The position numbers and the translations under genes were made by a program. Below, piece by piece: positions 409-61,114 of a stretch of 64,000 nt of DNA; position 1 is the first letter of the stretch; each line of letters opens with the position of its first letter. The notes under the pieces were generated by a model that was not told the origin of the DNA, ran no database searches, and worked only from the letters and a program-made list of their open reading frames with translations. Where the stretch lies: positions 196,044,001 through 196,108,000 of the forward strand of contig OZ024741.1 of NCBI GenBank assembly GCA_964016885.1, written 5' to 3'. The stretch is from Eledone cirrhosa (Eukaryota).

Positions 409-1665
409 ATGCAGTGCAGATTTTTCCATCCCATATCGTTGTTTAGGTCAATCCAAACATTTTCTCCGCCCAGTTTCACTTCTCTCCGAAATCCTGTAAC
501 TGTGACTACTCTACAACTAGTGAATTACCAGTCGACGGCTACCGAAAAGAAACTTTTTACTCCAGGTCCTCTAAACACTACATCGACAGTGCGTGAGGCA
601 ATGTTAAAAGATCTAGGTTCGCGAGATATTCAGTTTATCCAGTGTGTGAAAAATATTCGGCAGAAAATTCTGGACATCGCAGAAGTTAGCAATCTTGAGT
701 ATACGTCGATACCAGTTCAAGGTAGTGGAACATACGCTGTCGAAGCCGTCCTTCAATCAACAGTTCCTCGGGGCGATGGTAATGTTCTTATTTTGGAAAA
801 CGGTGCCTATGGTAAACGTATTGCAAAAATCTGTGAAATTGCAGGCATTTCAAAACACGTATTGAGTTTCCCTGAAAACTCTGCTGTAGATGTTAATGTT
901 GTTGAAGATATTTTGAAAAATGATTCTACATTTACTCATGTTGCTATAGTTCACTGTGAGACAAGTTCTGGAGTTTTCAACCCTGTCGTGGATATTGGTA
1001 AGATTCTCCAAAAATATTTAAACAATTTTACTTATTTTGTGGATGCAATGAGTAGTTTTGGAGCAGTTCCGCTTGATTTCGCTGCCGGCAACATCGACTT
1101 CATGGTTAGTTCAGCGAATAAATGTTTACAAGGTGTTCCTGGATTCTCTTACGTGGTTGCGAGGACTAGCAAGCTACTAGAATGTCGTGGTTATTCCCGC
1201 TGTCTTACCCTGGATCTTTATGATCAATATGAGAACCTGGAAAAAACAGGTCAGTTTCGGTTTACCCCTCCAACACATACGATGTTAGCATTTCAGCAAG
1301 CTATCGTGGAATATGAGCAAGAAGGGAGCTTAAAGGGAAGGTCTGATAGATATATGGAAAATCGATCTATTTTGGGAAAAGGTATGAAAACACTTGGTTT
1401 CAAAGAGTTACTGGCTGATCCAAACCAACCTAGTTATATTATAACTTCATTTTACTTTCCCAGCGATTCACATTTTGATTTTACTACGTTCTACAACAAA
1501 TTAAACGATTTAGATTTTGTTATATACCCTGGCAAAGTACTGGAAGCAGGCTGCTTTCGAATTGGAACAATAGGTGAAGTTTACCCATCAGATATTAAGG
1601 GTCTATTAAAAGCTATCGAAAGAGTTTGCCTCGAAATGAATATGACACTCCCACTGAACGGTTAA
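409..1665 (+). CDS. phnW: 2-aminoethylphosphonate:pyruvate transaminase (AEP transaminase, PhnW/AepZ family, class V PLP enzyme); single coding exon with N-terminal mitochondrial-presequence-like extension
   Basis: 418-aa uninterrupted ORF with family motifs KKLFTPGPL, DLGSRD, QGSGTYAVEA, NGAYGKR, HCETSSG, VDAMSSFG, SSANKCLQGVPG (PLP lysine ~K238), QFRFTPPTH, IYPGK, FRIGTIG. The first ~45 aa are S/T/R/F-rich with no acidic residues. Confidence 0.95.
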   Translation: MQCRFFHPISLFRSIQTFSPPSFTSLRNPVTVTTLQLVNYQSTATEKKLFTPGPLNTTSTVREAMLKDLGSRDIQFIQCVKNIRQKILDIAEVSNLEYTSIPVQGSGTYAVEAVLQSTVPRGDGNVLILENGAYGKRIAKICEIAGISKHVLSFPENSAVDVNVVEDILKNDSTFTHVAIVHCETSSGVFNPVVDIGKILQKYLNNFTYFVDAMSSFGAVPLDFAAGNIDFMVSSANKCLQGVPGFSYVVARTSKLLECRGYSRCLTLDLYDQYENLEKTGQFRFTPPTHTMLAFQQAIVEYEQEGSLKGRSDRYMENRSILGKGMKTLGFKELLADPNQPSYIITSFYFPSDSHFDFTTFYNKLNDLDFVIYPGKVLEAGCFRIGTIGEVYPSDIKGLLKAIERVCLEMNMTLPLNG

Positions 1666-1774
1666 TGGAAGGCTTAAAAACTTTTTAATTAATATATATT
1701 TAAATATTTTCATATCTAATTTTACAAAATTGTTACTGGGGTAATTATACGATATATATATATATAATATATTA

Positions 1775-1780
1775 AATAAA
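1775..1780 (+). promoter_or_regulatory. Candidate polyadenylation signal of the AEP transaminase gene
   Basis: AATAAA ~110 nt after the stop codon; a second AATAAA at 1831-1836. AT-rich context makes chance hits likely. Confidence 0.3.
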
Positions 1781-2584
1781 TAAAAACATGCAAAAAATGG
1801 AAGAAAAATAAGGGGGAAACATTCGGTTGCAATAAAATTATATTGAAATATTGAAATACATGTTTTTTTCTGTTACTGTCGCATTGATATGTTTGTTTTA
1901 TGTACATAATACACATCTGCACGTTTCATAAATGATACAGCTTCTTATTTCCCTACTCCAGGTCTCATACACCATACTCGACTGTGATTTATAGGGACTA
2001 AATTATTCTATTCTTATATGGTCAGATTATTGAAATATCAATCAAATATCACTAGGTTTTACTTGGATTAAAACTGCTTGTACCTTGATGGTGTATGTTT
2101 AACGGGACATCCAGATGGAATGTTTGCGAGTGAGGAACTCTGTGGTAAGGAATTTTCACATGAATTCTTCTCAAGGTGAACTCTATATATCAATTAGTGT
2201 ACAATATTCTCAAAATGTGAAGTGATCATTCTCATTTTGTGCAGTAATAAAATTACTTGAAAAACCATGTAAATTTTAGATTATTTTCTTTCTCTTTTTT
2301 TTCCTTTACTCTCATAACATACAATTACAGATTTGTCTATTTCACATTTGTCTGCACGAAACAAAATGTATGTGGCTTGATACCTTGCCTTTGGTGTCAC
2401 GATAGCGTCATGATTGATTTCATGGACAGATGCAAAATGTAACACGTCATATGAGCCTCTAGTCATATATATGTATTATATATATATATATATATATCAG
2501 ATTAGGCATGGTGACGTTTAATAAGAATGTACTTTGCTGATAAGGGGCGATAGTGTGGTGATCCACATTTTAAATTATTAATTT

Positions 2585-3220
2585 GGATTGGTAGTATCGG
2601 TAGAGGATCGGATGCTATACTTTGCAGCAAAGAGTTACGGCCCTTTATGGTCTGAGTTCAAATCCCGCCGAGGTTAACTTTGCCTTTCATCCTTACGGGG
2701 TCGATAAAATAAAGTACCAATAATACACTGGGATAATTGCTGGCCTTGTGCCAAAAGTAGAAACAATTATTTTGTCCCCTACTATATATTAAATCAATTG
2801 ACAGAGTCGTTAGGGCATCAGAATAAAAATGCCTCAGTATTTTTTTCCAGCTCATTTCGCTCAGATTTTAAATCTTGCAGAGGTCAGCTTTAGCTTTCAA
2901 CCTTTCGAAGTCAATAAAATAAAGTACCAATCAAGCAGTTATTATTCTGATCCTTACGGGGTCAATAAAATAAAGTACCAGTAATGCACTCTGGGTAATT
3001 GCTGGCCTTGTGCCTAAAGTAGAAACAATTATTCTGGTGGTTTAACAGTATTGGTTGAGCGTCGTGCACCATGATTTGCAGCATAGAGTTATGACTCTTT
3101 ATGTTCCGAGTTCAAATCCCGCTAAGGTTAGCTTTGCCTTTCATCCTTATGGAGTCGATTTAATCGCCTGTCCCCTACCCCAAAATTGCTGGCCTTGTGC
3201 CTATAGTAGAAATCATTATT
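2585..3220 (+). mobile_element. Cluster of tRNA-derived SINE family A copies (full and partial)
   Basis: Repeated units with B-box-like GAGTTCAAATCC, central TTTGCCTTTCATCCTTACGGGGTCGATAAAATAAAGTACC and tail GGCCTTGTGCCAAAAGTAGAAACAATTATT; the same unit recurs throughout the window. Confidence 0.85.
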
Positions 3221-3602
3221 ATTCTGAAGTTAATATATATTCTTAGGACTAGTGACTCATTTAGATTTTACATCAGCTCTTCAAAATTTCAAGAAACCTG
3301 AAAGTTTAATAGAGTTACTTGATCAAATATCATGGTTTGGCTGGGTTGTCTCATTCTGAAATTGGACTGGTCAGATGACCACATCTTGCTTATGTTTCAT
3401 TTTTGTATGGTTTCTATGACTGGATGCCTTCCTAATACCAACTATTTTACCGAGTGTATTTTATTTTGGTAGTTACAGTGTCCTCAGCCAGGCAGTGATG
3501 GGAGTGGAAGCATGGCAAATGTGTAGCAATGGCTACCACATGTTACAGTGGGGGAAGGAGAGGGAAAGTGAGAGCAAGAGTTTGGATTGAGAAGATGTCA
3601 TA

Positions 3603-5740
3603 TCATCATCATCATCATTTTACGTCCGCTTTTCCCTGCTTGCAAGGGTGGGACGGGCCTTATTCAGCACAGCTTCTCTCCACTTGTCACGGTCCTTCAT
3701 CATCTCCACCGTGTGCTTCAGCGATCTGAGGTCTGTTCTCACGACCTCCGCCCATGTTTTTCGTGGTCTACCTTAACCACGTCTTCCTCTCGCACACTAC
3801 ATTCTATCCCCCTCAGACACAGTTTCTCTCTCAACACATCCATGCTTGGTCGTTCACGCACATTGACATTGCACATCCAACGGAGCATGCTTGCCTCAGT
3901 TCTCTCCAGCCGTCGCATATCCTCTGCAGTTGCTGCACAAGTCTCACTACCATGCAGCATCGCGCACCTCACACAGGCATCATATAACCGGCCTTTCGTA
4001 TGCAGGGAGAAGCCCTTCTTCGTCAGCAGAGGAAGCAGCTCCCTAAACTTCTTCCAACCCGTCCTTATTCTAGATACTATGGCTTCAGAACACCCCCTCC
4101 CATGCTAATCTGATCTCCTAGGTACCGGAAGCTATCCACCACTTCTATAGCACCCGCCTGCATTGGAAAAATGTGTCTATCATTGCAACTTCTACTGTCT
4201 AATTTCCCTGTACATCTACTGCATACGTATTTCTCCCTACTTGTTAGTTTGCCTGCTATCCCACTATATCTCTTGTGTACCCAGGATCTGCATTGTGTGC
4301 ATTTTATAGAATTTATGCCAGTTCCTTTTCTGCATATCAAACATGGCCATTTCCCTGACTGAATCAGAGTTTTGTCCTCTTTTCTACTCATCAATACTTT
4401 TGTCTTAGCTAGGTTCACTCTCAGTCCTCTTGCTTCCAACTGCTGTTTCCATAGCCAGAATTTATTCTCTAGCCCCTCTACTAATTCTGCTATAAGAACC
4501 AGATCATCAGCATAGAGAAGTTCCCATGGACAGCCAGTCTTAAACTCCTCTGTTATGGCTTGGAGGACTATAATGAACAAGAGTGGGCTGAGGACCGAAC
4601 CTTGATGTACTCCTACTAGTATCTGGAATTCCTCACTAAACTCCATTCCTACCCTGACTTTACTGACGGCACCTCTGTACAAAGTTTGCACTGTCCTCAC
4701 AAGCCATTCCTCAACACCTAGTTTCCTTAGGGACCACCAGATGACAGATTAGAGTACCCTATCAAAGGCCTTCTCTAGGTCAACAAAAGCTAAGTATAGT
4801 GGCTTATTCTTCTCTAAGAACCTCTCTTGTAATTGTCTCACCAAGAAGAGGGCATCTGTTGTACTTTTCCCAGGCACAAAACCAAACTGCATCTCATCTA
4901 GTTTGACCCTTTCTCTAATTAGTTGAGCTAATATCCTTTCTGCCACTTTTATAACCTGATCCATCAGTTTTATACCCCTATAATTGCACCTCTCCAGAGC
5001 ATCCCCATTACCTTTGTAGCAATTTATGAGAATACTGCTGCACCAGTCTTTGGGTATGACACCGCCATAAATAGCCTGATTGATGATGTGTGTAACCTGT
5101 TTAGTGCGTACGTCCCCTGATGCCTTCAGCATCTCAGCAACTATCCCCGACGGTCCAGCAGCCTTACCATTTTTCATTTCCTTAATCACCTCTTGGACCC
5201 TATATTCGTCAATCTCAGTAGCTGGTCCCTCTGTCAGATCTACTGAGGGTAATTTCTCTCTCTCCCATTCGTTCTCCACATTCATCATGATGACATTTCC
5301 AGGCCCCCTTTTTCTGATCATTCGTGACACTAAGTACACCGGCACCATTCCGGACACATTTATCTCCAACAACATCCTGATTTGCATTGACACACTGCCT
5401 TGCAATGTGGAACACCACACGCCTCTGATCTTCCCATCGCAGAACATTGGCAAACCTCCTACTCTCAGCCTCCCTGCGTGCTAAGTACACCTGACGTCTA
5501 GCTTCTCTCTTAGCGGCTCTATATCCTTCTCTACTCCCACCCTTTTTCCAAGCCTTCCATGCTAGCCTTTTGTCTCTAATGGCCCTATCTACCGTGCTGT
5601 TCCACCACCAGGTCACTCTCTGTCTGGTTGGAGCTCTGCTCCAGCCACAAGTTTCATCAGTAGCCTGCAGTAAGTTGTCACGTAAGAAATTCCAGTTATC
5701 ATCTATGTCATACGTCTCTAAATCGTCTTCTTTTTCGTCA
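3603..5740 (-). mobile_element. RTE-clade LINE, 5'-truncated and frameshifted
   Basis: RT motifs NYRGIKLM, QFGFVPGKSTTDA, FVDLEKAFDRV, GVHQGSVLSPLLF, LLYADDL, FRYLG, AMLHGSETC; (GAT)n tail at 3603-3618 on the minus strand. Confidence 0.93.
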
Positions 5741-5749
5741 TATATATAT

Positions 5750-6023
5750 CTAAAGACATTTTCCCAATTCCAACCTGCCCGTCCCTTCAATCTATCTTAT
5801 TTCTCATTCTTTCTTCTCATGAAGGATAGCGTCCGAAACGTTAAGACCCTCGTCCTGCTATTTCAAGCGTTAACCTACTATGGAAGGAATATATTAGGTT
5901 AACGCTTGAAATAACAGGAAGAGGGTCTTGACGTTTCGGATGCTAGTCTTTCATCAGAAGAAAGAATGAGAAATAAGATAGATTGAGGGGACGGGCAGGT
6001 TGGAATTGGAAAAAATGTCTTTA
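5750..6023. repeat. Fold-back element (arms ~5750-5877 / ~5895-6023) with a decayed hammerhead ribozyme in each arm
   Basis: Arms are reverse complements and TA-flanked. Plus arm: tctt-CTCATGA-a-gga tagcg tcc-GAAA-cg-TT-aaga (5812-5846). Minus arm: tctt-CTGATGA-a-agac tagc atcc-GAAA-cg-TC-aaga (5926-5961). Confidence 0.85.
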
Positions 6024-6379
6024 TATATATATATATTTATATACATACATGCATATATACTTCGTTTTTGTATGTTTTGCAAGATTTCTTATCTGAAAAT
6101 GTGTGTTCAAACAGATATAGTTATGCTTTGGGAGGGTCATGCTGCCAATAAAAACAGCTCACAAAATCAAGATGGTGTAAGACGGAACAAAGAAGAGACA
6201 CAAAATAATAACAAAAGTAATCACAGAACTTTGACAATCAAGAACTAAACTATCCGGATATTAAACTAAACTAACTGACTGGGATTTTATAATAAATTGG
6301 TGCATGTGTTTTTATTGGAAGTTTGACACTCCCAAAGTATAACAATATATATATATTGTTGTAAATATATATATATCCG

Positions 6380-7125
6380 ACTCCCCACGGGTACAAGCCG
6401 AAGCTGAAGCATATAGACAATATGCTCCCACCCCTTCCCACTGCAAAGTGGTCGTGGAGGTGCCATGGCTTAAAAGCACCCAGCCCACACTGTAAAGTGG
6501 GCGTGTAGGCACCACGGGAAAAAAGCACCTAGCACTCACTGCAAATGAGGTTGGTGTTAGGAAGGGCATCCAGCTGTAGAAATCAAGCTAGAATCAGTTC
6601 CCATATGAACAAGACTAGGTCAGCCAACCGGACACTGCTCACAACAGGACAACCCGTCTAACCCATGCTAGAGTGGAAGAACAGACGTGAAACGGTGATG
6701 ATGATGATGATGATACATCATCATCATCATCTTCGTTTAACGTCCATTTTCCACGCTAGCATGGGTTAGACGGGAATTGTCCCACTTGAGGCAAGGTTGG
6801 TCAGGTGACCGTGTCTCGCTCATATAGGACTATCTGGCAGGTTTTCTATGGCTGGATGCCCTTCCTAACACCAACCACATTTACAGTGTGGAACTGGGAA
6901 CTTTTTACCGTGTTACCTACACGGCCACATTACAGCGTGGACTGTGTTTTTTTTGTCGTGACACCTACACGATCTCTAGATCAGGGGAACATGCCAGCCA
7001 GATAGATTATATCCTTACTAGAAGCCAGGATAAAGTGTCTGTTGTAAACACTAAATCCCTCCCCCCGTGAAGAATGCACCTCCCAACATAGCCTAGTAGT
7101 TAGTGACTTCATAGTCAGGAATAGA
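6380..7125. mobile_element. RTE LINE fragments: two 3' ends tail-to-tail (6380-6715 +, 6716-6975 -) plus an endonuclease fragment (6975-7125 +)
   Basis: (GAT)n/(CAT)n tails meet at ~6715; 3'UTR matches 16914-17240; translation RSGEHASQIDYILTR resembles the APE C-terminus. Confidence 0.8.
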
Positions 7126-7298
7126 CGTATAGTTTATGAAATGAAATGATAAATAATTTACAGCAGAGAAAAAAAAAATCTAATAAAGACTTACCTAGCT
7201 AATTCCAACCAGGTTGAAACATCAGGTGGTGGTGTGTGCAAATATTGGCGTGGCCTTTTAGCATTAGTGGGAAGACAACTATCCATGCTCTTAATTAG

Positions 7299-7330
<32 letters not shown>

Positions 7331-7334
<4 letters not shown>

Positions 7335-7451
7335 CTTTATTTGCCACAAGAGCGCACAAGAAAAGGGGACAATACAAGGACATATGCTGGGGATTTTATG
7401 TCCTTGTATTGTCCCACCCTTCTCGCGCGCCCCTGTGGCAAATAAAGAAAT
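7331..7451. repeat. Short fold-back resembling the 3' end of the Tx1-like LINE
   Basis: Imperfect arms 7331-7384 / 7397-7451. The right arm ends GTGGCAAATAAAGAAA+tatatctatttatctatcta, like the Tx1 3' end at ~30620-30655. Confidence 0.65.
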
Positions 7452-7758
7452 ATATCTATTTATCTATCTATATAGATAGATAGATATTATAAAGTGCAAT
7501 GTCAGGAGGCCAAATTTCGTTAATTATATAAAACTACAGGAATAGAGAATAAGAAATAGAATGTAACAAGAAAGTAAGAGTTTAGGTAAAGGATGAATAA
7601 CACAATACAGAGTGGTGGTCATGGGAACACAGACAAATACAGGAATACACAAGCAATAGGGTGTGACATATGTTACACCCTATTTCTTATTTTGTATCCC
7701 TATACTTTTATATTTGGATGTTGATTGTTTATCTTTAACTCCAATGACTTCCACTCTG

Positions 7759-7807
<49 letters not shown>

Positions 7808-8194
7808 CATATATATATATATTTATCATCATCATCATTTTACGGTCACTGACAAGTTTAACTATTAACATCTTGTAATGATTTAGCAGAAAATATCTAA
7901 AAATGGGTTTGTTGATTCAAATGTTTATAGCATATTTACAAGTGGACAAATTGTGAAAATTGTATTGATATATTTAGTATATATATATATTTAGAGAACC
8001 TACAAACATTGGAAAGAAATAAAGCTTGCATGCTTTGATGAACAGTGAAGCATCAATGAAAGGAGAGAAACTGGGCATAAGAGAAGTCATATGCAATGTG
8101 CAGTGGTATGGACATGTGATGCATATGGAGGATGACAGCTGTATAAAATGATGCAGGGCACACAGTCAACAGATATATATAAATATATATATAA

Positions 8195-9710
8195 ACCAAG
8201 TAATACTAAATGGCGTCATACCGAATGATAGGCGCAGCAGCATCATCATTGTCAACTGCTACAAGGGTAAAGGTGATGCACTAAATAGAAGAAACTATAG
8301 AGACATCAAGTTGATGGAACAGGTCATGAAAGTAACAGAAAGAGTTATAGCACAGCTGATTAGGGACCGGGTAAATCTAGATGAGATGCAGTTTGAATTT
8401 GTAACAGGCAAAAGCACCATAGATGCTCTCTTTCTAGTGAAGCAGCTACAGAAGTGCCTAGCTAAAAGTAAGCTGCGCTACCTGGCTTTGTTGATCTGGA
8501 GAAAGCTTTTGACTGAGTCCTCCCCTGTGCCATTATCTGGCGGGCTCTTAGAAAACTAGGAGTAGATGAGTGGCTTATGAAGGCTGTACAAGCCATGTAT
8601 AGGGGAGCAGTCAGCAAAGTTATGATTAACAAAGACTGTAGTGAGGAATTTAGCATACATATTGACATCCACCAAGGCTCTGATCTTATACCTCTCCTGT
8701 TTATTGTCATACTACAGGCTATAACAGAGGAGGTTAAGTCCGGCTGCCCATGGGATTTCCTGTACACAGATGATCTCACACTCATAGCTGAATCTATGGT
8801 GGAACTAGAGAAGAAATTCCAAACCGGGAAGCATGGCCTAGAAACAAAGGGTCTTAAAGTCAACCTGACAAAGGCTAAATAAAAGGGAAAACCAAGCCCT
8901 GATCCCCTCGGGGAAATGACCTTGCCCAGTGTGTAGGAAAAGTGTAGGTAGAAATTCCATCCTTTGTCCCAAATGGAAATTTTGGGTACACAAGAGATAT
9001 AGTAGGATCTCAGGTAGTTTAGCTAAGAATGTAGGTTTTACTTGTAGCTATTGCACCAGAGCAGTAAGCAGGAAATAAGTGCTAACAAAATCTGGGAAGG
9101 TTTAGTAGAAGCAGTAGACAGCTTCTGCTACCTAGGTGACCAAATTAGCAGTGCAGGTGGGTGTTCTGAAAGTACCATAGTCAGAGTGTGAATGGGATGG
9201 AAGAAGTTCAGGAAGTTACTACTACTGCTAGCTACAAAAAGGTTTTCCCTCAAAATGAAAGGCAGTCTGTATGATGTGTGCATATGAACAACAATGTTGC
9301 ATGGCAGTGAGACCTGGGTGCTGTGTGCAGAGGACCTGCAAAGATTAGAAAGAAATGAAGCTTGTGTGCTCTGATGGATGTGTAATAATAATATACATGA
9401 ATGGCAAAGCATTATTGAAATGAGAGAGAAACTAGGCAAAAGAGGAATCAGATGCAGCATGTAAGAGAGGAGATTGTGTTGGTATGGACATGTGATGCAT
9501 ATGAAAGATGAGTTGTATAAAAAGATTCAAAGTTGATGAAAGCCATGCAGTGGGTAGACCTAGGAAGACCTGGGACAAGGTGATAAAAGCTGATCTTGTC
9601 TACTTACACTCCTCAAAGACGATGACACAGGGCTGAGATCTCTGACATTATGTAGTAATACAGAAGACCTGCCTTCCCATGGGCACAGGCTGAAGCTGAA
9701 GCTTACATAT
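8195..9710 (+). mobile_element. RTE-clade LINE, degenerate
   Basis: Same RT motifs as 18102-18755 (ERVIAQLIRDRV, HQGS, LYTDDL) with stops and frameshifts. Confidence 0.9.
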
Positions 9711-9821
9711 AGTATATATATATATATATATATATAGTAATAATAATAAAATTGAAGACTAAAATCCAAAGAGGGTTCGATAAGGAAAATATATATCAAA
9801 TATATAAGAACCGTAGAGCAA

Positions 9822-9952
9822 ATATTTATTAAAATAACAGATTAAAGTTTAAGCAAAGAATCGCTGCTTTCACCCTTAACGGGATCTGATCCCGTTAAGG
9901 GTGAAAGCAGCGATTCTTTGCTTAAACTTTAATCTGTTATTTTAATAAATAT
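9822..9952. repeat. Perfect palindrome, 65-bp arms, 1-nt loop
   Basis: ...CACCCTTAACGGGATC-T-GATCCCGTTAAGGGTG... centred at 9887; followed by (TA)n. Confidence 0.95.
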
Positions 9953-10009
9953 ATATATATATATATATTTATGTATATTTATATATATATATATTTATGT
10001 ATATATATA

Positions 10010-10563
10010 TTTGTGTATAACAAAGTGCAGGGCAATAAAGATAGACGGTAGCCACGGAATAGGCAGACCTAGAAAAACCTGGGATGAGCTGATAAACTCC
10101 GACCTCACACACTTACACCTCTCCAAGACAATGTCACTGGACCGAGACCTTTGGCGGTACTCAGTAACAGAGAAGACCCGCCTTGCCAGTAGGCATCTCT
10201 AACAAAATAGACCCCGTCCCGCCACCACCCCCACCCCATCCACACCACCCCGTTCTATGTAAAGTTATGTTGGTGCCGCGCCATCCAGGCCGAAACAAAT
10301 GAGATCGTGTAGGTGTCACGACAAAAAAACACACAGTCCACGCTGTAATGTGGCCGTGTAGGCAACACGGTAAAAACCTCCCAGACCCACACTGTAAATG
10401 TGGTTGGTGTTAGGAAGGGCATCCAACTGTAGAAAACCTGCCAGACAGTCCTATGCGAGCAAGACAATCACTCTTGCCTCAAGTGGGACTACCCCCGTCC
10501 AAACCCATGCAAGCATGGAACACGGACGTTAAACGTTGATGATGATGATGATGATGATGATGA
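10010..10563 (+). mobile_element. RTE LINE 3' end
   Basis: C-terminal GRPRKTWDE motif, shared 3'UTR and (GAT)n tail. Confidence 0.85.
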
Positions 10564-11112
10564 TATATATTGGTAAACGGAATAGAAAATGCTGACAAAT
10601 TGTTCACAGTGAAAAATAGTTTAATTAGGAAGATGGACGTTAAACGATGATGATGATGATGATGAATGAATAAAAATAACCAGGATTTAATTACATTCAT
10701 CCTTATAGGGTCGATAAAATAAAGTACCAGTAATGTACTGGTAATTGCTGGCCTTGTGCCAAAAGTAGAAACAATTATTTAATAGATTTATGAGCCTTTT
10801 TTTCAAATACAGTAGGAAGTACCATTTTATTCCTCTGTACTGAATTCCTCAGAATCATTGAACAATACAAACATAATTATTTGCCAACTGCATGTCTGAA
10901 CATTTCCATTTTGAAGACGTAAACAGATTTAAAATATAGTAGGGAAAACTTATGGAAGATTCAACACACAAATTAAAATTCATTAGTAAAAATATACTGT
11001 GTAGTAATTAGTTTTTCTCTTAAAACCTCGTATATATATATATATTAGACTCACATAAACATTATAGGAATAAAATTAGAACTTATGAATTTAATGGTCT
11101 CTGATTTAGAAA

Positions 11113-11306
11113 ATAATTGTTTCTACTTTTGGCACAAGGCCAGCAATTAACCCAGTATATTACTGGTACTTTATTTTATCGACCCCGTAAGGATGAAAGG
11201 CAAAGTTAACCTTGGCGGGATTTGAACTCAGAATGGCAAGGGCCGTAACTCTATGCGTCAAAGCATGGCGTCCGACCCTCTACCGATATTGCCAATCCAC
11301 CGCCAT
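11113..11306 (-). mobile_element. tRNA-derived SINE family A, full length
   Basis: Reverse complement of the unit at 37918-38110 (head GGCGGTGGATTGGC, B-box, central domain, tail). Confidence 0.9.
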
Positions 11307-11539
11307 CTGATTTAGAAAATAATGGTTTAATACAAACATTAATAAAGTATATTAAGAAAAATAATACAAAACTTATGGAAGTTTTATTCAGTAATAATGT
11401 ATTAATCAGTAGAATGATTTCTAATTATCAAGAAACTAATTGCCTAAAAATAGTATTTATAGAGGAGAAAAGAATTATTTTTAGAATAAAGTTATGAGTG
11501 AACATTAAGCAAAACACATTAGGCTACACACACACACAT

Positions 11540-12020
11540 ATAGTCCTCAGTTCAAAGATCAGACTGATGCACTCTCCAGTCATGTCCATATTCTTGTATG
11601 ATTGTGAGTCTTGGACAATAACAGTAGATCTGGAAAGAAGAATACAGGCTATGGAGATGAGATGCTTCAGAAAGCTCCTTCGCATCACCTACAGAGACCA
11701 CATATCCAATGAGGAGGTACGAAACAGAATTTGGCAAGCCATCGGGCCCTATGAAGACCTGCTGACTATTGTAAAAAAAAACATGAATTGAGATGGTACG
11801 GAAAAGTGACAAGATCTTCGGGGTCTGCCAAGACTGTCCTGCAGGGAATAGTAGAGGAGGGAAGAAGAGAGGCAGAAAGAGATGGGAGGACAAAATCCCG
11901 GAATGGACAGGCATGAGGCAGGGTGCAACCATGAGGAAGGCAGAGAGGTGAGAGGAATGGAAGGATCTGGTTGCCAGGTCATCTGTGGTGTCCCAATGGT
12001 CCACCAGACTATGGGACAGA
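11540..12020 (+). mobile_element. RTE/BovB-like LINE 3' fragment (second family)
   Basis: FLYDCESWT, RIQAMEMRCFRKLLRITYRDHISNEEVRNRI motifs. Confidence 0.85.
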
Positions 12021-12541
12021 TGAGATATATATATACATACATACAAATATGTACGCTCATATATAGATACATATACATCCACATAGGTACCTATAGATAT
12101 ACATATATACTCACATACACACGTATACCTCTACACATATATATATGTGTGTGTATACCCTCCCATATACTTACAGAGTCACAACACACATTTCCACAGG
12201 CATGGATATAAACATACCAACAGACACACAGTTATACATACACAGACATATATATATATATGTAAAAGGTAAACAAAAATAACAAAATAAATGGCACAGT
12301 ACATGAAAGAAATATATTAGTTTAATGCTTGAAATAGCTGGAAGAGAGTCTGAATGTATCGGACAGTCATCCTTCATCAGAAGATAGGGTTAAAAATAGA
12401 AGATAAATAGAAAACAGTGATTTCCAGAGGTTGGCTAAGGAGATGGGATTTGTTTTATTTCCATTGTCTTTGTCATGTGCAGGCCTATTTTGAATGTGTG
12501 TGTGTGTATATCTGTATATATATCTGTACTATATACTTTGA

Positions 12542-12575
<34 letters not shown>

Positions 12576-12769
12576 TCAAAGTATATAGTACAGGACAAAG
12601 ACAATGGAAAAAAACAACAGAAAGGCAGACATCTCCTCAGCCAACCTCTGGAAATCACTACAGTTTTGGTAAATTAAGGTCAATACCAATCTTTCCAGTG
12701 CACATTAGGACATAACAAAACAGGTAGAGACAAGTTATGCCTTTAGGAAAATTGTTTTTTCCAGAGAAG

Positions 12770-13830
12770 TCCTTTGAGAGCGTACCATGATCTGTCATCT
12801 GGTGGTCCTTTAGGGAAACTAGGTGTAGAGGAATGGCTTGTAAGAGCAGTGCAAGCCATGTATAGAGAAGCTGTTGGGAAGGTGAGAGTAGGCAATAAAT
12901 TTAGTGGGGAATTCAAAGTGCAGTTATGTGTTCATCAAGGCTCAGTCCTTAGCCCATTCCTGTTCATTATAGTTCTCCAGACCATAACAAAGAAATTTAA
13001 GGCATGGGAACTTCTGTATGCCAATAACCTGGTTCTTATAGCCAAATCAGTGGAAGCACAATGTCAATCTTGGATACACAGGAGGAGTAGTGGGGTGGGA
13101 TAGCAGGCAGACTAACAGAAAAGGTAAACTTTGTATGTAGCAGGCGCACAGGGATAGTAAGTAGTAAGAGCAACAGTAAAATAAATGTTTTCCAATATCA
13201 GGAAGTCTCTATAGAAGTGGTTGATAACTTCTGCTACCTAGATGATCAAATTAGTGGGTGTGGTGCAGCTGCAGTGAGAGCATAGTAGCTAGGGCAAGGA
13301 AAATGTTCAGGATGGATAATGTTCAGGGAGCTACCATCTCTGTTAACAACAAAAGGTTTCTTTCTACGAAAGAAAGATTGACTGTATAATATCTGTGTGG
13401 AGAATGCTATATTGCATGGTTGCAAAGCATAAGCAATAAATGCAGAGGATATGTGAAGGCTAGAGAGAAGTGAAGCACGCATGCTCCAATGGATATACAA
13501 TGCTAATGTGCAATAACAACAAAGCATGGATAAGCTGCAAGAAAAACTGAAAAGAGGAATCAGACGTAATGTGTAGGAGAGAAGACTATGCTGGTAATGT
13601 GGTGCATATAGGTGAAGAAGTACCAAGAAATCCCAGTAGAAGGGAGCTACATTAAAGGGACACCAAGTAAGACCTGGGCAGAGGTTGTAAAAGCTGTTCC
13701 CAAATCACTGAAACACAGTCGAGTTGACTAAAGACTGTGACGAGTGGAGGGGTACTATGCTGGAAAAAGATCCATCCAACCCATTATGCAAGCTTAGAAA
13801 AACGTAGGTGGTGGTAATAACGATGATTAT
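12770..13830 (+). mobile_element. RTE-clade LINE, degenerate 3' part
   Basis: LGVEEWLVRAVQAMY, VHQGSVLSPFLF, WELLYANNL. Confidence 0.85.
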
Positions 13831-14766
13831 GAAAACAAGGGAAAAAAAGTGCTCACAGCTTTGTTTGACTTCGTGTATTTCTCCAGTTGATTTTATCGTT
13901 TATTTTTCTTAACTATTGACATAACAAATATCAAGAAAGCGATCGATTGTACCCAATCTCTTAACAAAAAACGTGCCTTGTAAAAAAAAAATATTGAATT
14001 CGTTTTATTAAAACATTTTTTTAAAACACAGCTGGACTTTAACTTCGGGCTAAAATATATTTTAATGACAAAATCTATATTTAATATATTTTAACTTAAT
14101 TTAGAATCGGTTCTGTTCGTAAATTCAATTATACAACAAAAGAATTTAAAAGGATTTATTAGCCTGTTGTACACAATACAAGCTTCTGATTATGAACAAG
14201 GAGTATTCAAATTAAAATAATCTTTCAAAAAGAAAGTAAAATAATCTTCATAGTTATAAAATTTCCCTTCTCAGTAACAAATCATAACAGCTGTAGTTAG
14301 ACATTTCCCAATAAGCGCAACTGGTCGTCTATTGTGACTGAAGTAAAGATTTTAGAATATACATAAGTAGTAAAACTTAGTCGGCTGTTAGTTGTAGTAG
14401 TAACTGATCTGCGCTACAAACTTCTGATTAACTGTCAGTCGAACGGATCGTTAGACGTAGCTTCCTCCAGTAGCCCTGCCCATTTTTGAGTACGGCTAAG
14501 CATTTTCGCTTGGTTAATTTAATTTCAAACCTTATTTATTTTATAAGTATTTACTCAACTATATTACCAGCTGTAGTTTCTTTATTGTAGCTTTGTATTC
14601 GATTTCATACATGCAGTCGTGGCTATATATTGACACTGCTTCTGTCTATATACATATATAGTAAGCTAGACACGCACCGGATCCAGGGAACCGCAACAAT
14701 ACGATCGCTTAACTAAAGAAGCTTCAAACATTTCTCAGCCATAATTTCGATTTTTTAACAATTTCC

Positions 14767-14856
14767 ATGATGTTCCCGGTAACTTTATTCAGCAAACAAC
14801 GTTTTATACAAGTTTTCTTTAAGAATACCAACAAGCTTCGTACTTTGTCTATCCAA
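14767..14856 (+). CDS. Probable first coding exon of phosphonopyruvate decarboxylase (mitochondrial-presequence-like peptide)
   Basis: ATG-initiated 30 codons MMFPVTLFSKQRFIQVFFKNTNKLRTLSIQ (basic/hydroxylated, no D/E) ending at a consensus donor CAA|GTAAGT in phase 0, matching the phase-0 acceptor at 60967. It lies in a repeat-free, CpG-containing island. Confidence 0.6.
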
Positions 14857-27597: not shown

Positions 27598-27690
27598 GTA
27601 AATCAGACAAAGTTGGAATTTCTTTTATTAATATAATCTTCTATACACAATCATACACACCTGAGTATATTTATCTATCTATCTATCTAC

Positions 27691-34406: not shown

Positions 34407-37400
34407 ACCTTCTTCACTCCCCTTAGTAAATAAGCTTGAGAAAGACATGAAGATCACGTTTCCTTTCTCCTTCTAAAATGTAAAGATTTTGTTGTTGTTC
34501 TTCTTGTTTACTTACTTATTCCTGGGATGATGGTCGTAGGGGCAGATTCCTCAAACACTCCGTGCAGTAGGTCCTGTCAGAAGCAACCATCTCCAATTGA
34601 TTTGGTTAGATCTCCAAGTGAGACCAGCTGAGTTAATTGATGTTATCCAACCATCTTGCTTGGGGTTTAACTCTCAGTGTTCTGCCTGTTGGTTTTGCCC
34701 ATAAAATCTATCCAGCAATTCTTTCCTGAGACATTCTAACCATATGTCTATAATATCAGAGCTGTAATCTCTTGATTCAGAGAAGTAATGGCTCTACCTG
34801 GAATGACTCTTTGATCTCTGAGCTACACACTCTATTAAGTAACCTTACTCGAAAGAAAAATTTTGTAAGGACTTATTTATTAATCTATTTATTATTATTT
34901 TTTCAGATTCCATGCAAGAAAAAAGTTTTATATAAAGCAAGTAACCCAGTGGCTTTATATCACACTTCATTATGTTTAAACACCTTGAAGTCTGTAAGTT
35001 TTTAGTGATTCCTTTTATAAAAAAAAGTTTCTGTAAATATTGCTTTTAAAATATCTTCAGGCAATTGCTTAATACCATGTATGCTATAAGCTTCCTTTTC
35101 TGAAAATGAATGTAGCTTTTGCTGTTCTTTCACCTTTCTAAGTTATATCAATTTCTACATATAACTTGTAATAAATGTTATTCAGTCTTCAGAATAGTAA
35201 AGTGAGGTCGTTCCTCATTTCATTGCTTTTACAATATAGTTTTCTAATAGTTTTTGTTATTTTGGTTTTAAATATTTAAAACAGAAGTGCCATTCATATC
35301 TTGTCCCTGGTTATTATCAATGAATGTTTAGAGAAATAGTTACAAAAGGGAATTGAAATTTAATCATAAACTAGGCTTATGAGTAGTTTGTCATCTTGGA
35401 ATATATTTGTAGTAATATATTTTGTAGGTATAATAGGAATATATTTTCTCATACATTGTGTGTATGTATTTTTAATAATGGTATAATTTCTTAGAGTAAA
35501 AGACTCAGCTCCTTTCAAACCAAAGGAGAAGCCATATTTGGTCAGTGTTTGAAATTAACTCATTTCATTTATGCCTCTAATCACCTTCTCTGCTGAAACG
35601 TAGGCTATTTTTACCTCATGTAAATAAATAAATATTTGTATTAAATTATGAAGTATACTATTAAGAAATAGGTAAACCAATTTCCTTTACATTCACTGAG
35701 TTGGATGTAATGACATACACCATGAACCTAGCAGAGGCTATCCCCTCTTCAGGTTTGAAACAAAACCAATTTCTTCCAGAGAAGGAAAGCATGATAGAGA
35801 GGAAGTGAAATACAAAGGAAGAATTTATCCCAATACTTGACAGGTACTTTTTTTATCTGCTTCAAAAGGATGACAGGCAAAGTTGACCTCGGTAGAATTT
35901 GATCTTAGAAAGTGCAGAGAGTCAGAATGAATACCACAAAGCATTCTGTCCGACATTTTGATAATTCTGCCAATTCACCACAATTGCTTACATTACGAGG
36001 GTCCTTAAAAAGACATGAATATTTTAGGATCTCATTTGTATTCCTTATTAAATTATAGTATACTTGTTAACAAAAAGCTGTAATGTTCATTTTCTTAACA
36101 ACAACCACTATGTTGTGGTTTATCTCTAGCATGAGAGCTTGTGTCCCACTCAACATTGATTTAGTGAACCTTGAACAGACAATTGAGCCAATGCACCAGC
36201 AGTTAGTTCCCCTATGAATGCAAGTTTCACTGAATTTTCATCTGTTCTGATCAGTCGTAAGTATTAACAAAATAGTGTTTGTAGTTAAAACCTTTACTCT
36301 TTGAAAGCAAAGAAACAATTTAAAATAAATATTTAAAAAATAGGTCAACTTTTATTTTCATAGTGTTTCTCTTAACCTTTTCATTACCATATTTCTAATA
36401 AAAAAAAAACTCTACCTATGGTTTTCAAATAATTTTTAAAATAATAAAAAATTTGGAGGAATTTAGTAATATAACTAACTTTCTCATCTGGTGTTTGGAA
36501 CATAAGTTAACAAAGATTCTTACATAAAATTAGCATGGAAGGCTTATAGACACCTTTAGATAAACATCTTAGTATCCCAGAACTAGGGATGGTTTCAGGC
36601 AGTTTGGTATCAAATTCTTATAAAGAAACATTAGGACCATTTGGAAATAAAGGGAAAATTTTTGTTAAATTGTTTGAGATGCTGTTTTTACCACACCATG
36701 TCATACAATGTTTTTCTTCTATAAATTTGTGGCTGAGTGCAGTATCATATGTGTCGGATATCCATCAGTTCCAACAATGAGTGTTCTAGTTGATTTGACC
36801 AATGGAACAGCCTGCTCATAAAGTTAATGTGTAAGTGGCTGAGCATTCCACAGACACATGTACCATCAATGTAGTTCTCGTGGAGATTCATGTGGAACAA
36901 AGCTGACCCCTTCAATTACAAGTACAACTCATTTTCAAAGTTGAGTAGTCTAAAGAGTCTTGCTCAAGGACAAAATGTACCACTGAAAATCAAACTAATA
37001 ACCAAACATGTGCCTTTATAACAAAATAGTGTAAATGGAGGATAACTGAAAATAGAAAGACCAACTGCTCCCATCACATCGGAAAATTATACTGCTGGTG
37101 ATGTTTACAAATCAGAAACTGGTTTTCTTGACATCCCTTGAATGACCAGAAAAAAATTATGATCTAAAACTCAAGTGAATAATTGTGACACATGTTTGTT
37201 CTGGTGTATAGCCTGACATCTCAGTAAATAATGGTGACACATGCACTGCTTTTTCACTCATACCCTACATTGTATACATTAAATATTTTATAGATACGGA
37301 TGTATATAAGATGTATATAAGTCAGTGTCAATAAATATGTGGACATATGCATATATACGCAAATGAAGCAGACAGGCGTGCGTAAATAAAATAATATGAA

Positions 37401-44900: not shown

Positions 44901-45367
44901 CTTTCTTTACATTCTGTGCTTAAATCCCACCAAGGTGGACTTTGTCTTTCATCCTTCCAGGGTCGATAAATAAAGTACCAGTCAAGTACTGGAGATGATT
45001 TTATCTACTTTGCCCTTCCCCTACATTTGGAAGTTCTGAAAAAATGCCCTGTTACAAAATGTCTTACTTAGTTTGTTAGTTCATATTCCTTACCTAGTAT
45101 GACTAGGTGCACAATTCAGACTATCAATATTCAGTATCATTGTATTTTACTTGTGTTTCCATTAGACAAACCTTGCTTTGTCTTTCCATAAGCATGAATT
45201 TCTTTTCACAGCCTCAAGATCCAGTAAGGGTATGTAGTTTCGTCTTGTTTCTTCACTGGTTAAATTATATATGTATACATATATATATATACACACACAC
45301 ACACATATATATATATATAATTGTTTCTACTTTTGGCACAAGGCCAGCAATTACCCAGTGCATTACT

Positions 45368-46630: not shown

Positions 46631-46699
<69 letters not shown>

Positions 46700-47587: not shown

Positions 47588-47649
<62 letters not shown>

Positions 47650-47657
<8 letters not shown>

Positions 47658-55166: not shown

Positions 55167-55222
<56 letters not shown>

Positions 55223-55637: not shown

Positions 55638-55668
<31 letters not shown>

Positions 55669-55682
55669 CATATATATGAATG

Positions 55683-55714
<32 letters not shown>

Positions 55715-57769: not shown

Positions 57770-57814
<45 letters not shown>

Positions 57815-57849
57815 AGGAGGTTATAGTTCACTTGAAGCATTGTGTAATG

Positions 57850-58151: not shown

Positions 58152-58182
<31 letters not shown>

Positions 58183-58669
58183 TGCATGTGTGTGTTTTTA
58201 TACGTGTGTATGAGTATCTATGCATGTATGTGTGTGTGTTTGTATGTATTTATGTATATATATTTGTATATGCACATCTCGTGTATATGTTTATTTTTCA
58301 GTTGCCCCCCCCCCCCCCCCCTCCACACCCTCATACTTATCGCTGTCAACACGTCTCCCTTTTGACTTTGTATATTTTTTGTTCTTATTCATTTATTTAT
58401 TTATTACTTTATGTATGTGTATGTATTTATGTTCCTGTCTGTAAACGCTAATACGTTTATGTTATAAAGTATACGTCTTCTTACCTTTTAAGTATATGTG
58501 CGTGGTTTAGTGTGTCTGCATACGTTCTGGATATTTATTGTTTTTTATATATATATATATTTTTTTTTCTACTCTTCTTTTTGTCCGTTTTTTTCTCAAC
58601 CTCACTATCATATTTCTTAAATATTTTTGTTTACAAATCCATATTTAATAAAAATACCATGTTTTTTTA

Positions 58670-58730
58670 TTCATTCTGACGACTGAAAACAGATAAAATA
58701 TTTGCTTTCAAGAAACCACTGGTAAATGAA
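58670..58730 (+). ncRNA. Type I hammerhead ribozyme
   Basis: ttcatt-CTGACGA-ctgaaa a cagat aaaat atttg c tttcaa-GAAA-cc act gg-TA^aatgaa; mirror of 53233-53293. Confidence 0.8.
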
Positions 58731-59164
58731 ATAATTATCTTATGTTGTTTATTACATAACTATATATGTTGTTTATTACATAACTATATATGGGAAAAGT
58801 AAACAAGTTGAAATAAATATTTACCAATTTACTTTGATGTCCCAACTGTAGCTTCGCTGTGGAATAGCAGCATTAGATATTTTAATAATTTAAGATATTC
58901 CTCACTGTGAGACTTCACAGCTCCCCAGGGAACTTCTCAATCCAAGAAAAAATTCTTGCAGCTGATCTTTTATACATAAGTACAAACATACATATGAGGG
59001 TGTCCAACTATTACCAGTTTTGCTCAATGAAGGAATTAATTAAAATCAATTAGTCAGAGCATTATAAAATTATTTGTAAGAAAAGTAAACAAGATAGAAT
59101 AAAACATTTACCAATTTACTTCCATATCTCAACTGATATATATATAATTTTATATATGTATTCG

Positions 59165-59281
59165 TTTTATTAAGGCTAAATAGTATATCTTGTTACTCTG
59201 GAGCTTTGCCTGTTTGCCTGACTTTGTGATAAACAGTTGAAACTCCAGAGTAACAAAACACACTATTTAGCTTTAATAAAA
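59165..59281. repeat. Imperfect short fold-back with a hammerhead-like 3' half
   Basis: Arms ~59165-59207 / ~59240-59281; GAAA-ctc ca gag-TA in the right arm; core 5' half decayed. Confidence 0.6.
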
Positions 59282-60966
59282 TGAATATTTAACTCTACTT
59301 TGGTATTGGGTATTCTTTTCTCTCAGCAGTCAACTACATATGGATATATATATATATTTGTTGTATCTCATATATTGTAATGTCATTTTATAAAACTGTA
59401 TCTATGTGCAAAGTATGTTTCCTTACCTAATGTTGGACTGTCTTCCTTCTAACCACATTCATTTATCACATTTGATACATTTTAATGTTCTTTCTATGAA
59501 TCTATCTGCATTTTTCTGCATTGTGCTTGTATTTCAATAAATATTGATGTTGGTAAAAATTAAAAGAAAACTTGAGATAACTTTCTTAGTTAGTCTAAAG
59601 TAGAAAAACAGAGATCAGGGTGCTGTGTTTTACTGGTGAGTTGAGATAGTCATGTGTTATATATTATCATCATTTTATATCTGCTTTTCAAACTTGCATG
59701 GATTGGACAGATTGTCATTGTCTGATACCAAATGGGCTGGAGTGACCTCATCTTACTCAGAAGTTTCATATTTCACATGGTTTCTACAATTGGGTGCCTT
59801 TTTTAAGGCCAATCACCTGACAGGAGGTACAGGGTACAGTTTTATTTATGGCACCACCAATACCACTTTGCAGAGTGTATCGCTTGCATTTTTCATGTCA
59901 CCAGCACTACCATTTTACAGAGTGTACTGAGTGCATTTTATCGTGGTATCAGCACTAGCGAGATTGTTACATGCTCTTTCAGACTGAAGGGTCCTCTCAA
60001 ACCTTATATTTTCTGTTTGATCACCAAGACTGTAGCTTCAAGTCATTCACCCTAACATTGAATGAAGCCCCTGGTCATTCACCCCATTTGCTTTTAGTGT
60101 TGTAGTTCTTGTACTGGTGAGTGCGTCTTTTATATGGTGGCATATTGCCATTCACCTCAGACCTAGGTCATCTCCTTCATGAGGTTCAGTTTCTTGAAGT
60201 CATTCTTCACAACTTCTTCACAAGGATTCCATCCACTTCAAGTGTTCTGCTTTTTTGTTATACAACTCGTGCATCACATAACCATATCAATACAATCATC
60301 TCTCTTGCAGACTACATTTGATTCTTTTTATACTCAGTTTTCTCACAGTTTTTGCACTTAATTCAACCTCCTGCCTTCTATAACTTGTGAATACAGTCCC
60401 GAGATACTTGAACCTGCTTCAGTGGAATTCCATTTACATGTAGAGTGCACTGCACAGGCTTCCTTGAGAGGACGATTGTCTCAGTTTTTGCAGCACTGAT
60501 TTTCATTCCAGGCATCCAACACTTGACATCAAACCTATCGAGTGCAAGTTGATATTAATATTTTATAAATGCAAAATATGTTTGTATCTATGTTTTAGGT
60601 TTTCTTTAGTTGATCTAAACCATTTGATTCCTAGATACTGCTTCACATTTCTGCTATTTTTCATTGTATCTTGTTTTTCCACCCTCAGTTTTTCCTCTCT
60701 CTTCTATAACTGATCTCTTTATACTCTGTATCTTTTTTATTTTGGAGAGTCTTCTGTTTTCTATCTACCCTTGGGGCTCTACTGGAAGAATTAGTTAGGG
60801 AATTTAAGGTTGGTGGCAATGCTGTGTGTGTGGATGTGGGGGTGTATGAGTAAAAGAAAGTTGAACAATAGAAATGGGCATGGAAATTTCACAGAAAACA
60901 TTTCACTATTAAATGTTCAAGTAAAATATGATTTACTCTCATGAAAATTTGTTTATATTTTGGCAG

Positions 60967-61114
60967 CAAGTAGCTGAACAACAAGTACGCAACCAAGAAG
61001 TAGGAATGATGACAGAACTTGTCAGAGACTTTTTAGATCCTGCTGATTTCTGCAAAGCATTGCATAATATAGGCATAGACTTTTTCTGTGGTATTCCTGA
61101 TTCTTTATTAAAAG
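60967..61114 (+). CDS. ppd: Phosphonopyruvate decarboxylase (Ppd/AepY, TPP-dependent) coding exon, N-terminal part of the PYR domain
   Basis: Acceptor ttttggcag|, donor AAAG|gtaatg; translation QVAEQQVRNQEVGMMTELVRDFLDPADFCKALHNIGIDFFCGIPDSLLK contains the Ppd signature DFFxG(V/I)PDSLLK. The gene continues beyond the window. Confidence 0.85.

What the first reader, a model, noticed from the sequence alone, without database searches (positions are those of the whole stretch)
409..61114. Linked phosphonate-biosynthesis genes in an animal genome: AEP transaminase directly upstream of phosphonopyruvate decarboxylase
Seen: the only two host genes I can recognise are an AEP transaminase (409-1665) and a phosphonopyruvate decarboxylase (exon 60967-61114, probable exon 1 at 14767), on the same strand with only repeats between them. 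Established: Ppd converts phosphonopyruvate to phosphonoacetaldehyde and the transaminase converts that to 2-aminoethylphosphonate. These are steps 2 and 3 after PEP mutase, and AEP is the head group of the ceramide-AEP phosphonolipids of molluscs. In bacteria these genes are operonic. Inference: two non-homologous, consecutive-step enzymes as neighbours in a large, repeat-rich genome look like a metabolic gene cluster, which is rare in animals.
Basis: partly seen in the sequence, partly recalled or inferred. Interest (0 to 1): 0.88.

Follow-up and report, generated by a model that had tools for sequence, protein, structure and literature searches.

The report
Octopus phosphonate-pathway gene pair
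In this octopus genome, the genes for two consecutive steps that likely make the carbon-phosphorus lipid head group aminoethylphosphonate lie 13 kb apart, a close pairing found so far only in octopods; it likely arose when an intron-less copy of one gene moved beside the other, and shared regulation is untested.

Summary
Both genes are real. Positions 409-1665 encode an intact, intron-less AEP transaminase, 86% identical to Octopus sinensis. The true gap is 13.1 kb, in which only retrotransposon pieces were found.

The two genes share a chromosome or scaffold in 3 of 3 informative octopods: 6 accessions apart in O. vulgaris, 24 in Argonauta. They lie on different contigs in 25 of 26 other animals. 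Both are old, vertically inherited genes with different bacterial affinities, so this is a newly formed neighbourhood and not a relic operon. Bivalve and coral transaminases have introns, which suggests retroposition. No PEP mutase lies in the window.

A published supplement lists PEP mutase next to a CDP-alcohol phosphotransferase in a squid-octopus block: a possible second pathway pair and a candidate for the lipid synthase. Co-expression is untested, and chance adjacency remains nearly as likely (about 0.4). The scan had not noted this on other DNA.

The parts
409..1665 (+). AEP transaminase (PhnW/AepZ family), single-exon coding sequence, 418 aa, with a predicted mitochondrial-type presequence
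   Evidence: 466/450/439 bits against cut-offs 296/400.8/360.8; 86% to O. sinensis; aligns to solved PhnW structures, E 8e-106. Presequence inferred from composition only: 3 R/K and 0 D/E in 45 aa.
385..1848 (+). Extent of one contig of run X4; probable transcript of the transaminase, in one piece
   Evidence: table 8 record 25 (1463 nt, depth 40.6; depth 1.5 in the 2001-2400 bin, where contigs of X1-X3 run on). The run's kind is not on record, so this is a weak hint.
1831..1836 (+). AATAAA, candidate poly(A) signal of the transaminase
   Evidence: the X4 contig ends 12 nt behind it.
1666..14766 (.). Intergenic gap, 13.1 kb, high-copy repeats with broken reverse-transcriptase pieces (4080-5480 -, 8152-8879 +, 12747-13100 +)
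14767..14856 (+). PPD coding exon 1 (ATG ... phase-0 donor GTAAGT)
   Evidence: (70% over 30 aa to O. bimaculoides PPD).
34907..34993 (+).
45212..45229 (+). PPD 18-nt micro-exon (PQDPVR), AG/GT, identical in protein to an alternatively used exon of O. bimaculoides isoforms X1, X2, X4, X5
60967..61114 (+). PPD first core exon, phase 0 to phase 1
   Evidence: (92% over 49 aa, E 2.5e-21); also found by an HMM built from 73 prokaryotic PPDs (E 3e-6).

Best explanation
An intron-less AEP transaminase gene lies 13 kb upstream of a multi-exon phosphonopyruvate decarboxylase gene, a pairing that likely formed anew in the cephalopod line when an mRNA-derived copy of the transaminase replaced the ancestral gene, and that is likely kept because the copy draws on the decarboxylase's regulatory neighbourhood. 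Shown: both identities, the exon layout, the gap, vertical descent of both genes, loss of the introns seen in bivalves and coral, same-chromosome linkage in octopods, and no close linkage in other animals. From established chemistry (PMC8942020): PPD turns phosphonopyruvate into phosphonoacetaldehyde and the transaminase turns that into AEP, the head group of the structural lipid CAEP. Inferred: the biosynthetic direction; retroposition as the cause of intron loss; arrival next to PPD by the insertion itself or by the later coleoid reshuffling; separate promoters under shared enhancers; matched expression that limits build-up of the reactive aldehyde, with both proteins predicted to enter mitochondria.
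For: Single-exon coding sequence. An ENA fragment of a bivalve cluster matches only residues 126-203 with unrelated flanks, as one exon read without splicing would; oyster and mussel isoforms diverge near residues 48, 92 and 369; coral has 4 introns (PMC3640398). A full-length relative from the sister group of octopods sits on a 52.9-kb ENA contig, which suggests intron loss before that split (P0007). Same contig in O. bimaculoides, O. vulgaris (CAI9730257.1 and CAI9730263.1) and Argonauta (4.89-Mb scaffold); in the two with ordered accessions the transaminase has the lower number. Different contigs in 25 of 26 other animals. Per-pair chance about 1e-4. A second, separately predicted kind of pairing exists in the same lineage: PEP mutase is listed next to a CDP-alcohol phosphotransferase in a squid-octopus block (PMC9023564 supplement).
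Against: Argonauta has 23 accession numbers between the two genes, so they may not be neighbours there. The pathway genes are unlinked in nearly all other animals, so linkage is not needed. Cephalopod-specific microsyntenies are on average not co-expressed (PMC9023564 section 11). No thiamine-enzyme family appears in that paper's block table, although blocks need three genes and the old assembly is fragmented. No target-site duplication or poly(A) tract flanks the transaminase. Some consecutive-step pair is adjacent by chance in 3-26% of genomes under my assumptions. The transaminase is closest to catabolic PhnW, so its direction is not shown. No expression data were obtained.
Confidence: 0.5

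Rival explanations
1. Neutral neighbours: retroposition or the coleoid genome reshuffle put the two genes together by chance, and they stayed because octopod gene order changes slowly. Each gene has its own regulation.
For: 505 new cephalopod microsyntenies arose by relocation and are not co-expressed more than random sets (PMC9023564). Look-elsewhere chance is 3-26% per genome under assumed numbers. Argonauta's 24-accession distance. No linkage in other animals. No PEP mutase in the window.
Against: The per-pathway chance is 2-3e-4, and a second pathway-type pairing (PEP mutase with a CDP-alcohol phosphotransferase) is listed in the same lineage, which chance would rarely add.
Confidence: 0.4
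2. Remnant of an ancient molluscan or animal AEP cluster that other lineages broke up.
For: The chiton Liolophura has both genes on one 82.5-Mb chromosome.
Against: They are 415 accessions apart there. 17 of 18 non-cephalopod species with contigs over 8 Mb for both genes have them on different contigs. The coral has the three genes on three scaffolds.
Confidence: 0.05
3. A bacterial operon fragment or intron-less gene gained by horizontal transfer, or contamination.
For: The transaminase has no introns, and such genes are operonic in bacteria: 54 of 80 prokaryotic PPD loci hold a PEP-mutase motif.
Against: Both proteins nest among octopods inside a clade of animals and their protist relatives (support 100 and 99). 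PPD has 10-20-kb introns. The transaminase sits in high-copy repeat DNA at single-copy depth. 0 of the 80 best metagenome loci for the transaminase have PPD or PEP mutase.
Confidence: 0.01
4. The transaminase works mainly in the catabolic direction (AEP to phosphonoacetaldehyde), so the two genes are not one biosynthetic unit.
For: Its closest prokaryotic relatives are in phnW-phnX(-pbfA) loci: 38 of 80 share the PhnX cluster. The rotifer paper reads these enzymes as catabolic (PMC3499245).
Against: Only one AEP transaminase per octopod species appeared among the best 120 hits and their clusters, and CAEP is a major lipid of molluscs (PMC8708635), so some transaminase must make AEP.
Confidence: 0.04

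Closest known systems
Bacterial ppm-ppd-AEPT neighbourhoods, including the 'Burkholderiales CDP-OH' family (Li and Horsman 2022, PMC8942020; passages read)
   Same: Same enzymes of consecutive steps; the bacterial family also holds cytidylyltransferases and phospholipid-synthesis genes.
   Different: Here two genes only, 13 kb apart, one with long introns, probably separate transcripts, no PEP mutase in the window. The animal transaminase groups with catabolic PhnW and not with the AepZ-type genes beside prokaryotic PPD.
Animal AEP pathway genes of Acropora digitifera (Shoguchi 2013, PMC3640398; passages read)
   Same: Same vertically inherited three-enzyme pathway.
   Different: The coral genes lie on three scaffolds and its transaminase has 4 introns; here two are neighbours and the transaminase has none.
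Animal metabolic gene pairs and clusters: vertebrate gadusol EEVS + MT-Ox (PMC4426668, passages), sponge lanosterol synthase + CYP51 and octocoral terpene clusters (as described in PMC13483135, passages)
   Same: Non-homologous genes of one pathway side by side in an animal genome.
   Different: Those are conserved across many species or were tested functionally. This pair is so far octopod-only, was assembled from old unlinked genes, and is untested.
Cephalopod-specific microsyntenies (Schmidbaur 2022, PMC9023564; abstract, sections 6, 11, 17 and supplement searches)
   Same: New neighbourhoods of old genes in coleoids; the likely background process.
   Different: They are defined by three or more genes shared by squid and octopus, with no pathway logic. 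This pair is not in their table, and squid conservation is untested.

Membership tests
AEP transaminase (PhnW/AepZ) | Scores above the curated family cut-offs | tested here: met
   NF010006 465.9/296, TIGR02326 450.1/400.8, TIGR03301 439.2/360.8.
AEP transaminase (PhnW/AepZ) | PLP-lysine and substrate-site motifs intact | tested here: met
   D212, K238, R284, T286 and R384 are invariant in 18 of 18 aligned animal sequences and identical in a solved PhnW. The roles of these residues are recalled.
AEP transaminase (PhnW/AepZ) | Activity and physiological direction | not testable with these tools
   Needs an enzyme assay; the closest prokaryotic relatives are catabolic.
Phosphonopyruvate decarboxylase (TIGR03297) | Orthology to a protein above the cut-off | tested here: met
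   Three exons read together give 77% over 110 columns to P0123; P0123 scores 456.9/312.5. All 32 hits of the core exon are PPD-like or unnamed.
Phosphonopyruvate decarboxylase (TIGR03297) | Whole gene intact, with TPP-binding domain | not testable with these tools
   About 350 residues lie beyond the window; no genome is held.
Bacterial ppm-ppd-AEPT operon | PEP mutase in the neighbourhood | tested here: not met
   No HMM hit (best E 2.7) and no motif in six frames, while the control PPD HMM found its exon. DNA outside the window was not seen.
Bacterial ppm-ppd-AEPT operon | Tight spacing and one transcript | tested here: not met
   13.1-kb repeat gap; AATAAA at 1831 and a contig end at 1848 (the contig end is a weak hint).
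Bacterial ppm-ppd-AEPT operon | Common descent of the linked genes from one cluster | tested here: not met
   The transaminase joins PhnW-like sequences (support 99), apart from the genes beside prokaryotic PPD (quick tree, midpoint root).
Eukaryotic metabolic gene cluster | Non-homologous genes of one pathway as neighbours | tested here: met
   Two genes, 13.1 kb apart.
Eukaryotic metabolic gene cluster | Three or more pathway genes (usual definition, recalled) | tested here: not met
   Only two in the window; the published PEP-mutase block lists neither gene.
Eukaryotic metabolic gene cluster | Linkage conserved beyond background synteny | tested here: inconclusive
   Same contig in 3 of 3 informative octopods, 6 and 24 accessions apart; coordinates and squid data unavailable.
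Eukaryotic metabolic gene cluster | Co-expression or shared regulation | not testable with these tools
   Only contigs of runs of unrecorded kind were served.
Retrogene | Intron-less coding sequence where orthologues have introns | tested here: met
Retrogene | Poly(A) remnant or target-site duplication | tested here: not met
   No A-run of 7 or more in 1666-2500; no convincing flanking direct repeat. Decay is expected for an old event.
Retrogene | New position relative to the parent locus | tested here: inconclusive
   Unlinked to PPD in bivalves, but coleoid reshuffling can also explain the move; in-place intron loss is not excluded.

The most novel reading that the evidence does not exclude
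Coleoid cephalopods rebuilt the phosphonolipid pathway from old, scattered genes into two new gene pairs: AEP transaminase with PPD (this window), and PEP mutase with a CDP-alcohol phosphotransferase (Euprymna chromosome 42 block; O. bimaculoides Ocbimv22007644/7645). This converges on the bacterial 'CDP-OH' phosphonolipid clusters, and the phosphotransferase is the still unassigned enzyme that attaches AEP to ceramide.
Probability: 0.25. Interest if true: 0.75.

Novelty: new variant of a known kind. Interest (0 to 1): 0.5.

Why it matters
Metabolic gene clusters in animals are few. A pair assembled anew from ancient unlinked genes, with a likely retrogene as the mover, would show how such clusters can start, and the unlinked bivalve orthologues give a ready control. 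The by-product matters for lipid biochemistry: the PEP-mutase neighbour is a concrete candidate for making CAEP, a major membrane lipid of molluscs and cnidarians for which my searches found no assigned synthase. If the pair proves neutral, the result is an ordinary annotation: two known pathway genes, four PPD exons and one intron-less gene.

Tried and rejected
No whole genome is held, so DNA flanking the window could not be searched for PEP mutase. No RNA holder was listed; the four runs are of unrecorded kind, from one study, and contigs only. A metagenome scan with the sister-group transaminase P0007 found nothing among 128 candidates. A viral scan with PPD found nothing among 9. The 69-nt alternative exon of O. 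bimaculoides isoforms X1/X4 was not found in the window. One PEP-mutase motif match among L081-L160 lies antisense to the phnW gene and was rejected. A bacterial promoter scan was irrelevant. The careful tree did not finish; all three trees are quick trees. A class-V aminotransferase in a Tubby-family block of the published table could not be assigned to this gene. Rows dropped before the synteny count: O. sinensis (PPD pieces on unplaced 50- and 38-kb scaffolds), Batillaria and Strigamia (no contig length for one or both genes), Timema (different species), and species with only one of the two genes listed. Supplement searches without a hit: PMC9068888 (1 small file), PMC12407938 (3 files), PMC9712504 (3 files, one scan unread), PMC10329180 (1 file), PMC6386654 (2 files). 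The Drosophila CPES paper is not held. No structure or complex was predicted, since binding is not claimed. Horizontal transfer, contamination and a pseudo-exon were considered and rejected.
Full report
Observation. Positions 409-1665 are one open frame of 418 aa. It passes three AEP-transaminase cut-offs and aligns to solved PhnW structures. Its best relatives are from Octopus sinensis (86%) and Argonauta (78%), and a quick tree places it among octopods with support 99. The window is therefore octopod DNA; no genome is held for it. The exon at 60967-61114 is 92% identical to O. bimaculoides PPD, which passes TIGR03297. Searching the window with that protein confirmed exon 1 (14767-14856) and found exon 2 (34907-34993). 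A pattern search found an 18-nt micro-exon (45212-45229) that O. bimaculoides uses in four of its six listed isoforms. All have AG/GT sites in compatible phase, and exons 1, 2 and the core exon read together give 77% identity to isoform X3. The pseudo-exon refutation therefore fails. The remaining 350 or so residues lie past the window's end.

What lies between. The genes are head to tail, 13.1 kb apart. Of 84 ORFs scanned across the window, 13 had Pfam hits, all retroelement or transposon families apart from two sub-cut-off hits. Contigs laid on 1-12000 show depth near 10 over the transaminase and mostly 1e4 to 1e6 over 2.4-11.6 kb in three runs that behave like DNA. In the fourth run one contig covers 385-1848 and ends 12 nt after an AATAAA. 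That fits a single-exon transcript with its own 3' end, but the run's kind is not on record. An HMM of 45 prokaryotic PEP-mutase-motif proteins found nothing in six frames (best E 2.7), while a control PPD HMM found the core exon at E 3e-6.

Synteny, read indirectly from contig lengths and accession numbers. Same contig: O. bimaculoides (80,868,371), O. vulgaris (99,980,488; CAI9730257.1 and CAI9730263.1) and Argonauta hians (4,891,981; GAB1607486.1 and GAB1607510.1). O. sinensis is uninformative because its PPD pieces are on unplaced scaffolds. The O. vulgaris PPD model starts inside the core exon, so its five intervening numbers could be repeat-derived models and direct adjacency is possible (inference). 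The Argonauta model is full length, so 23 intervening numbers suggest the genes are not neighbours there, if numbering follows position. Outside cephalopods, 25 of 26 species with both contig lengths have the genes on different contigs: 16 bivalves, 2 gastropods, Lingula, Dimorphilus, Priapulus, Periplaneta, Nematostella, Rhopilema and Hydra. Among the 18 with both contigs over 8 Mb, 17 differ. The exception is the chiton Liolophura: same chromosome, 415 accessions apart. The bivalves are related and are not independent cases. Acropora has the three pathway genes on three scaffolds (PMC3640398, passages). No squid, cuttlefish or Nautilus position could be obtained.

Origin. Both proteins fall in clades of animals with protist relatives (support 100 and 99; the label Sphaerothecum for the 'Sdes' rows is my reading). 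The prokaryotic loci closest to PPD carry a PEP-mutase motif in 54 of 80 cases and a distant transaminase (28-37% identity) in 19 of 80; 5 of 6 of those scanned pass TIGR03301. Of the 80 best metagenome loci for the transaminase (47 of 5 kb or more; five short ones are probably eukaryotic transcripts), none has PPD or PEP mutase, 38 share a cluster whose representative is phosphonatase PhnX, and 20 share PbfA. The two animal genes thus have different bacterial affinities, and their neighbourhood is not an inherited operon. The transaminase has lost introns: coral has four, a bivalve fragment behaves as one exon at residues 126-203, and oyster and mussel isoforms diverge near 48, 92 and 369. 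A full-length relative from the octopods' sister group lies on a 52.9-kb ENA contig; ENA entries for intron-bearing genes appear as fragments, which suggests that the loss is old. No poly(A) tract or target-site duplication remains.

A second pair. The supplement of Schmidbaur 2022 (PMC9023564) lists a cephalopod-specific block shared by Euprymna and O. bimaculoides: OST48, a CDP-alcohol phosphatidyltransferase (PF01066), PEP phosphomutase (PF13714), SNF5. It spans 389 kb in Euprymna; in Octopus the models are Ocbimv22007640, 7644, 7645 and 7647. I could not get the sequence, so it may be an ordinary CEPT, PIS or cardiolipin synthase. That the insect ceramide-phosphoethanolamine synthase belongs to this family and has molluscan relatives is recalled (one search failed). 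Neither the transaminase nor PPD is listed in that block, which argues against one three-gene cluster.

Mechanism and odds. I favour, at 0.5, a new pairing kept by shared regulation: a retrocopy needs a promoter and enhancers to survive, and one that lands in its partner's domain would be expressed in the right cells. The move, the sharing and the direction of the reaction are inferred. Chance stands at 0.4. A named pair is adjacent with p about 1e-4, but some consecutive-step pair is adjacent in 3-26% of shuffled genomes under assumed gene and pair numbers. Coleoids gained 505 new blocks that are on average not co-expressed, and Argonauta weakens strict adjacency. An ancient cluster (0.05), a catabolic role (0.04) and transfer or contamination (0.01) fit poorly.

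Literature. Full-text searches for PPD with molluscs, metazoa or octopus, for eukaryotic phosphonate clusters and for a CAEP synthase found no report of this linkage. The one octopus hit lists PPD in a table of O. maya white-body transcripts (PMC6522055, one passage). Most subscription papers are not searched, and unread supplements of genome papers may list the pair. Passages only were read of PMC3640398, PMC8942020, PMC13483135, PMC3499245, PMC8708635, PMC4426668 and PMC10649022; PMC7431532, PMC10574752 and PMC5648825 were seen as listings. The scan's own notes hold only bacterial phosphonate loci for this topic.

Verdict. It is a two-gene, so far octopod-only neighbourhood of known enzymes, and not a demonstrated cluster: a new variant of a known kind, interest 0.5.

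Noticed in passing
PMC9023564 supplementary file 4, rows 981 and 1539 (Euprymna Lachesis_group42:22152930-22542162; O. bimaculoides KQ417439:11700-215349): PEP phosphomutase is listed next to a CDP-alcohol phosphatidyltransferase in a squid-octopus block with OST48 and SNF5; candidate second pathway pair and candidate CAEP synthase.
   Followed up: partly
window 14767-60966: The PPD N-terminus is built from several short exons, including an 18-nt micro-exon kept between octopus species; O. bimaculoides has six isoforms that vary only here, which may change targeting.
   Followed up: partly
L086-L160: The animal AEP transaminase is closest to catabolic PhnW of phnW-phnX-pbfA loci and not to the AepZ genes beside prokaryotic PPD, which suggests that the animal pathway was put together from two sources.
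   Followed up: partly
L001-L080: The best-scoring prokaryotic relatives of animal PPD include several Woesearchaeota and Nanoarchaeota loci, usually with a roughly 430-aa PEP-mutase-motif ORF directly upstream.
   Followed up: no
window 27637-30324 (+): A fairly intact non-LTR retrotransposon in PPD intron 1: a 534-aa reverse-transcriptase frame followed after one stop by a 360-aa frame with zf-RVT.
   Followed up: no
proteins P0009 and P0134 (O. vulgaris): Both public gene models look faulty: the transaminase lacks its N-terminus and an internal stretch, and PPD ends in an unrelated tail after about 135 residues.
   Followed up: no
proteins P0019 and P0172 (Liolophura sinensis): The chiton has both genes on one chromosome, 415 accessions apart; the only non-cephalopod case.
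   Followed up: partly
PMC9023564 supplementary file 4, rows 858 and 1121: A class-V aminotransferase lies in a squid-octopus block with two Tubby-family genes; if it is this transaminase, these would be its upstream neighbours.
   Followed up: partly
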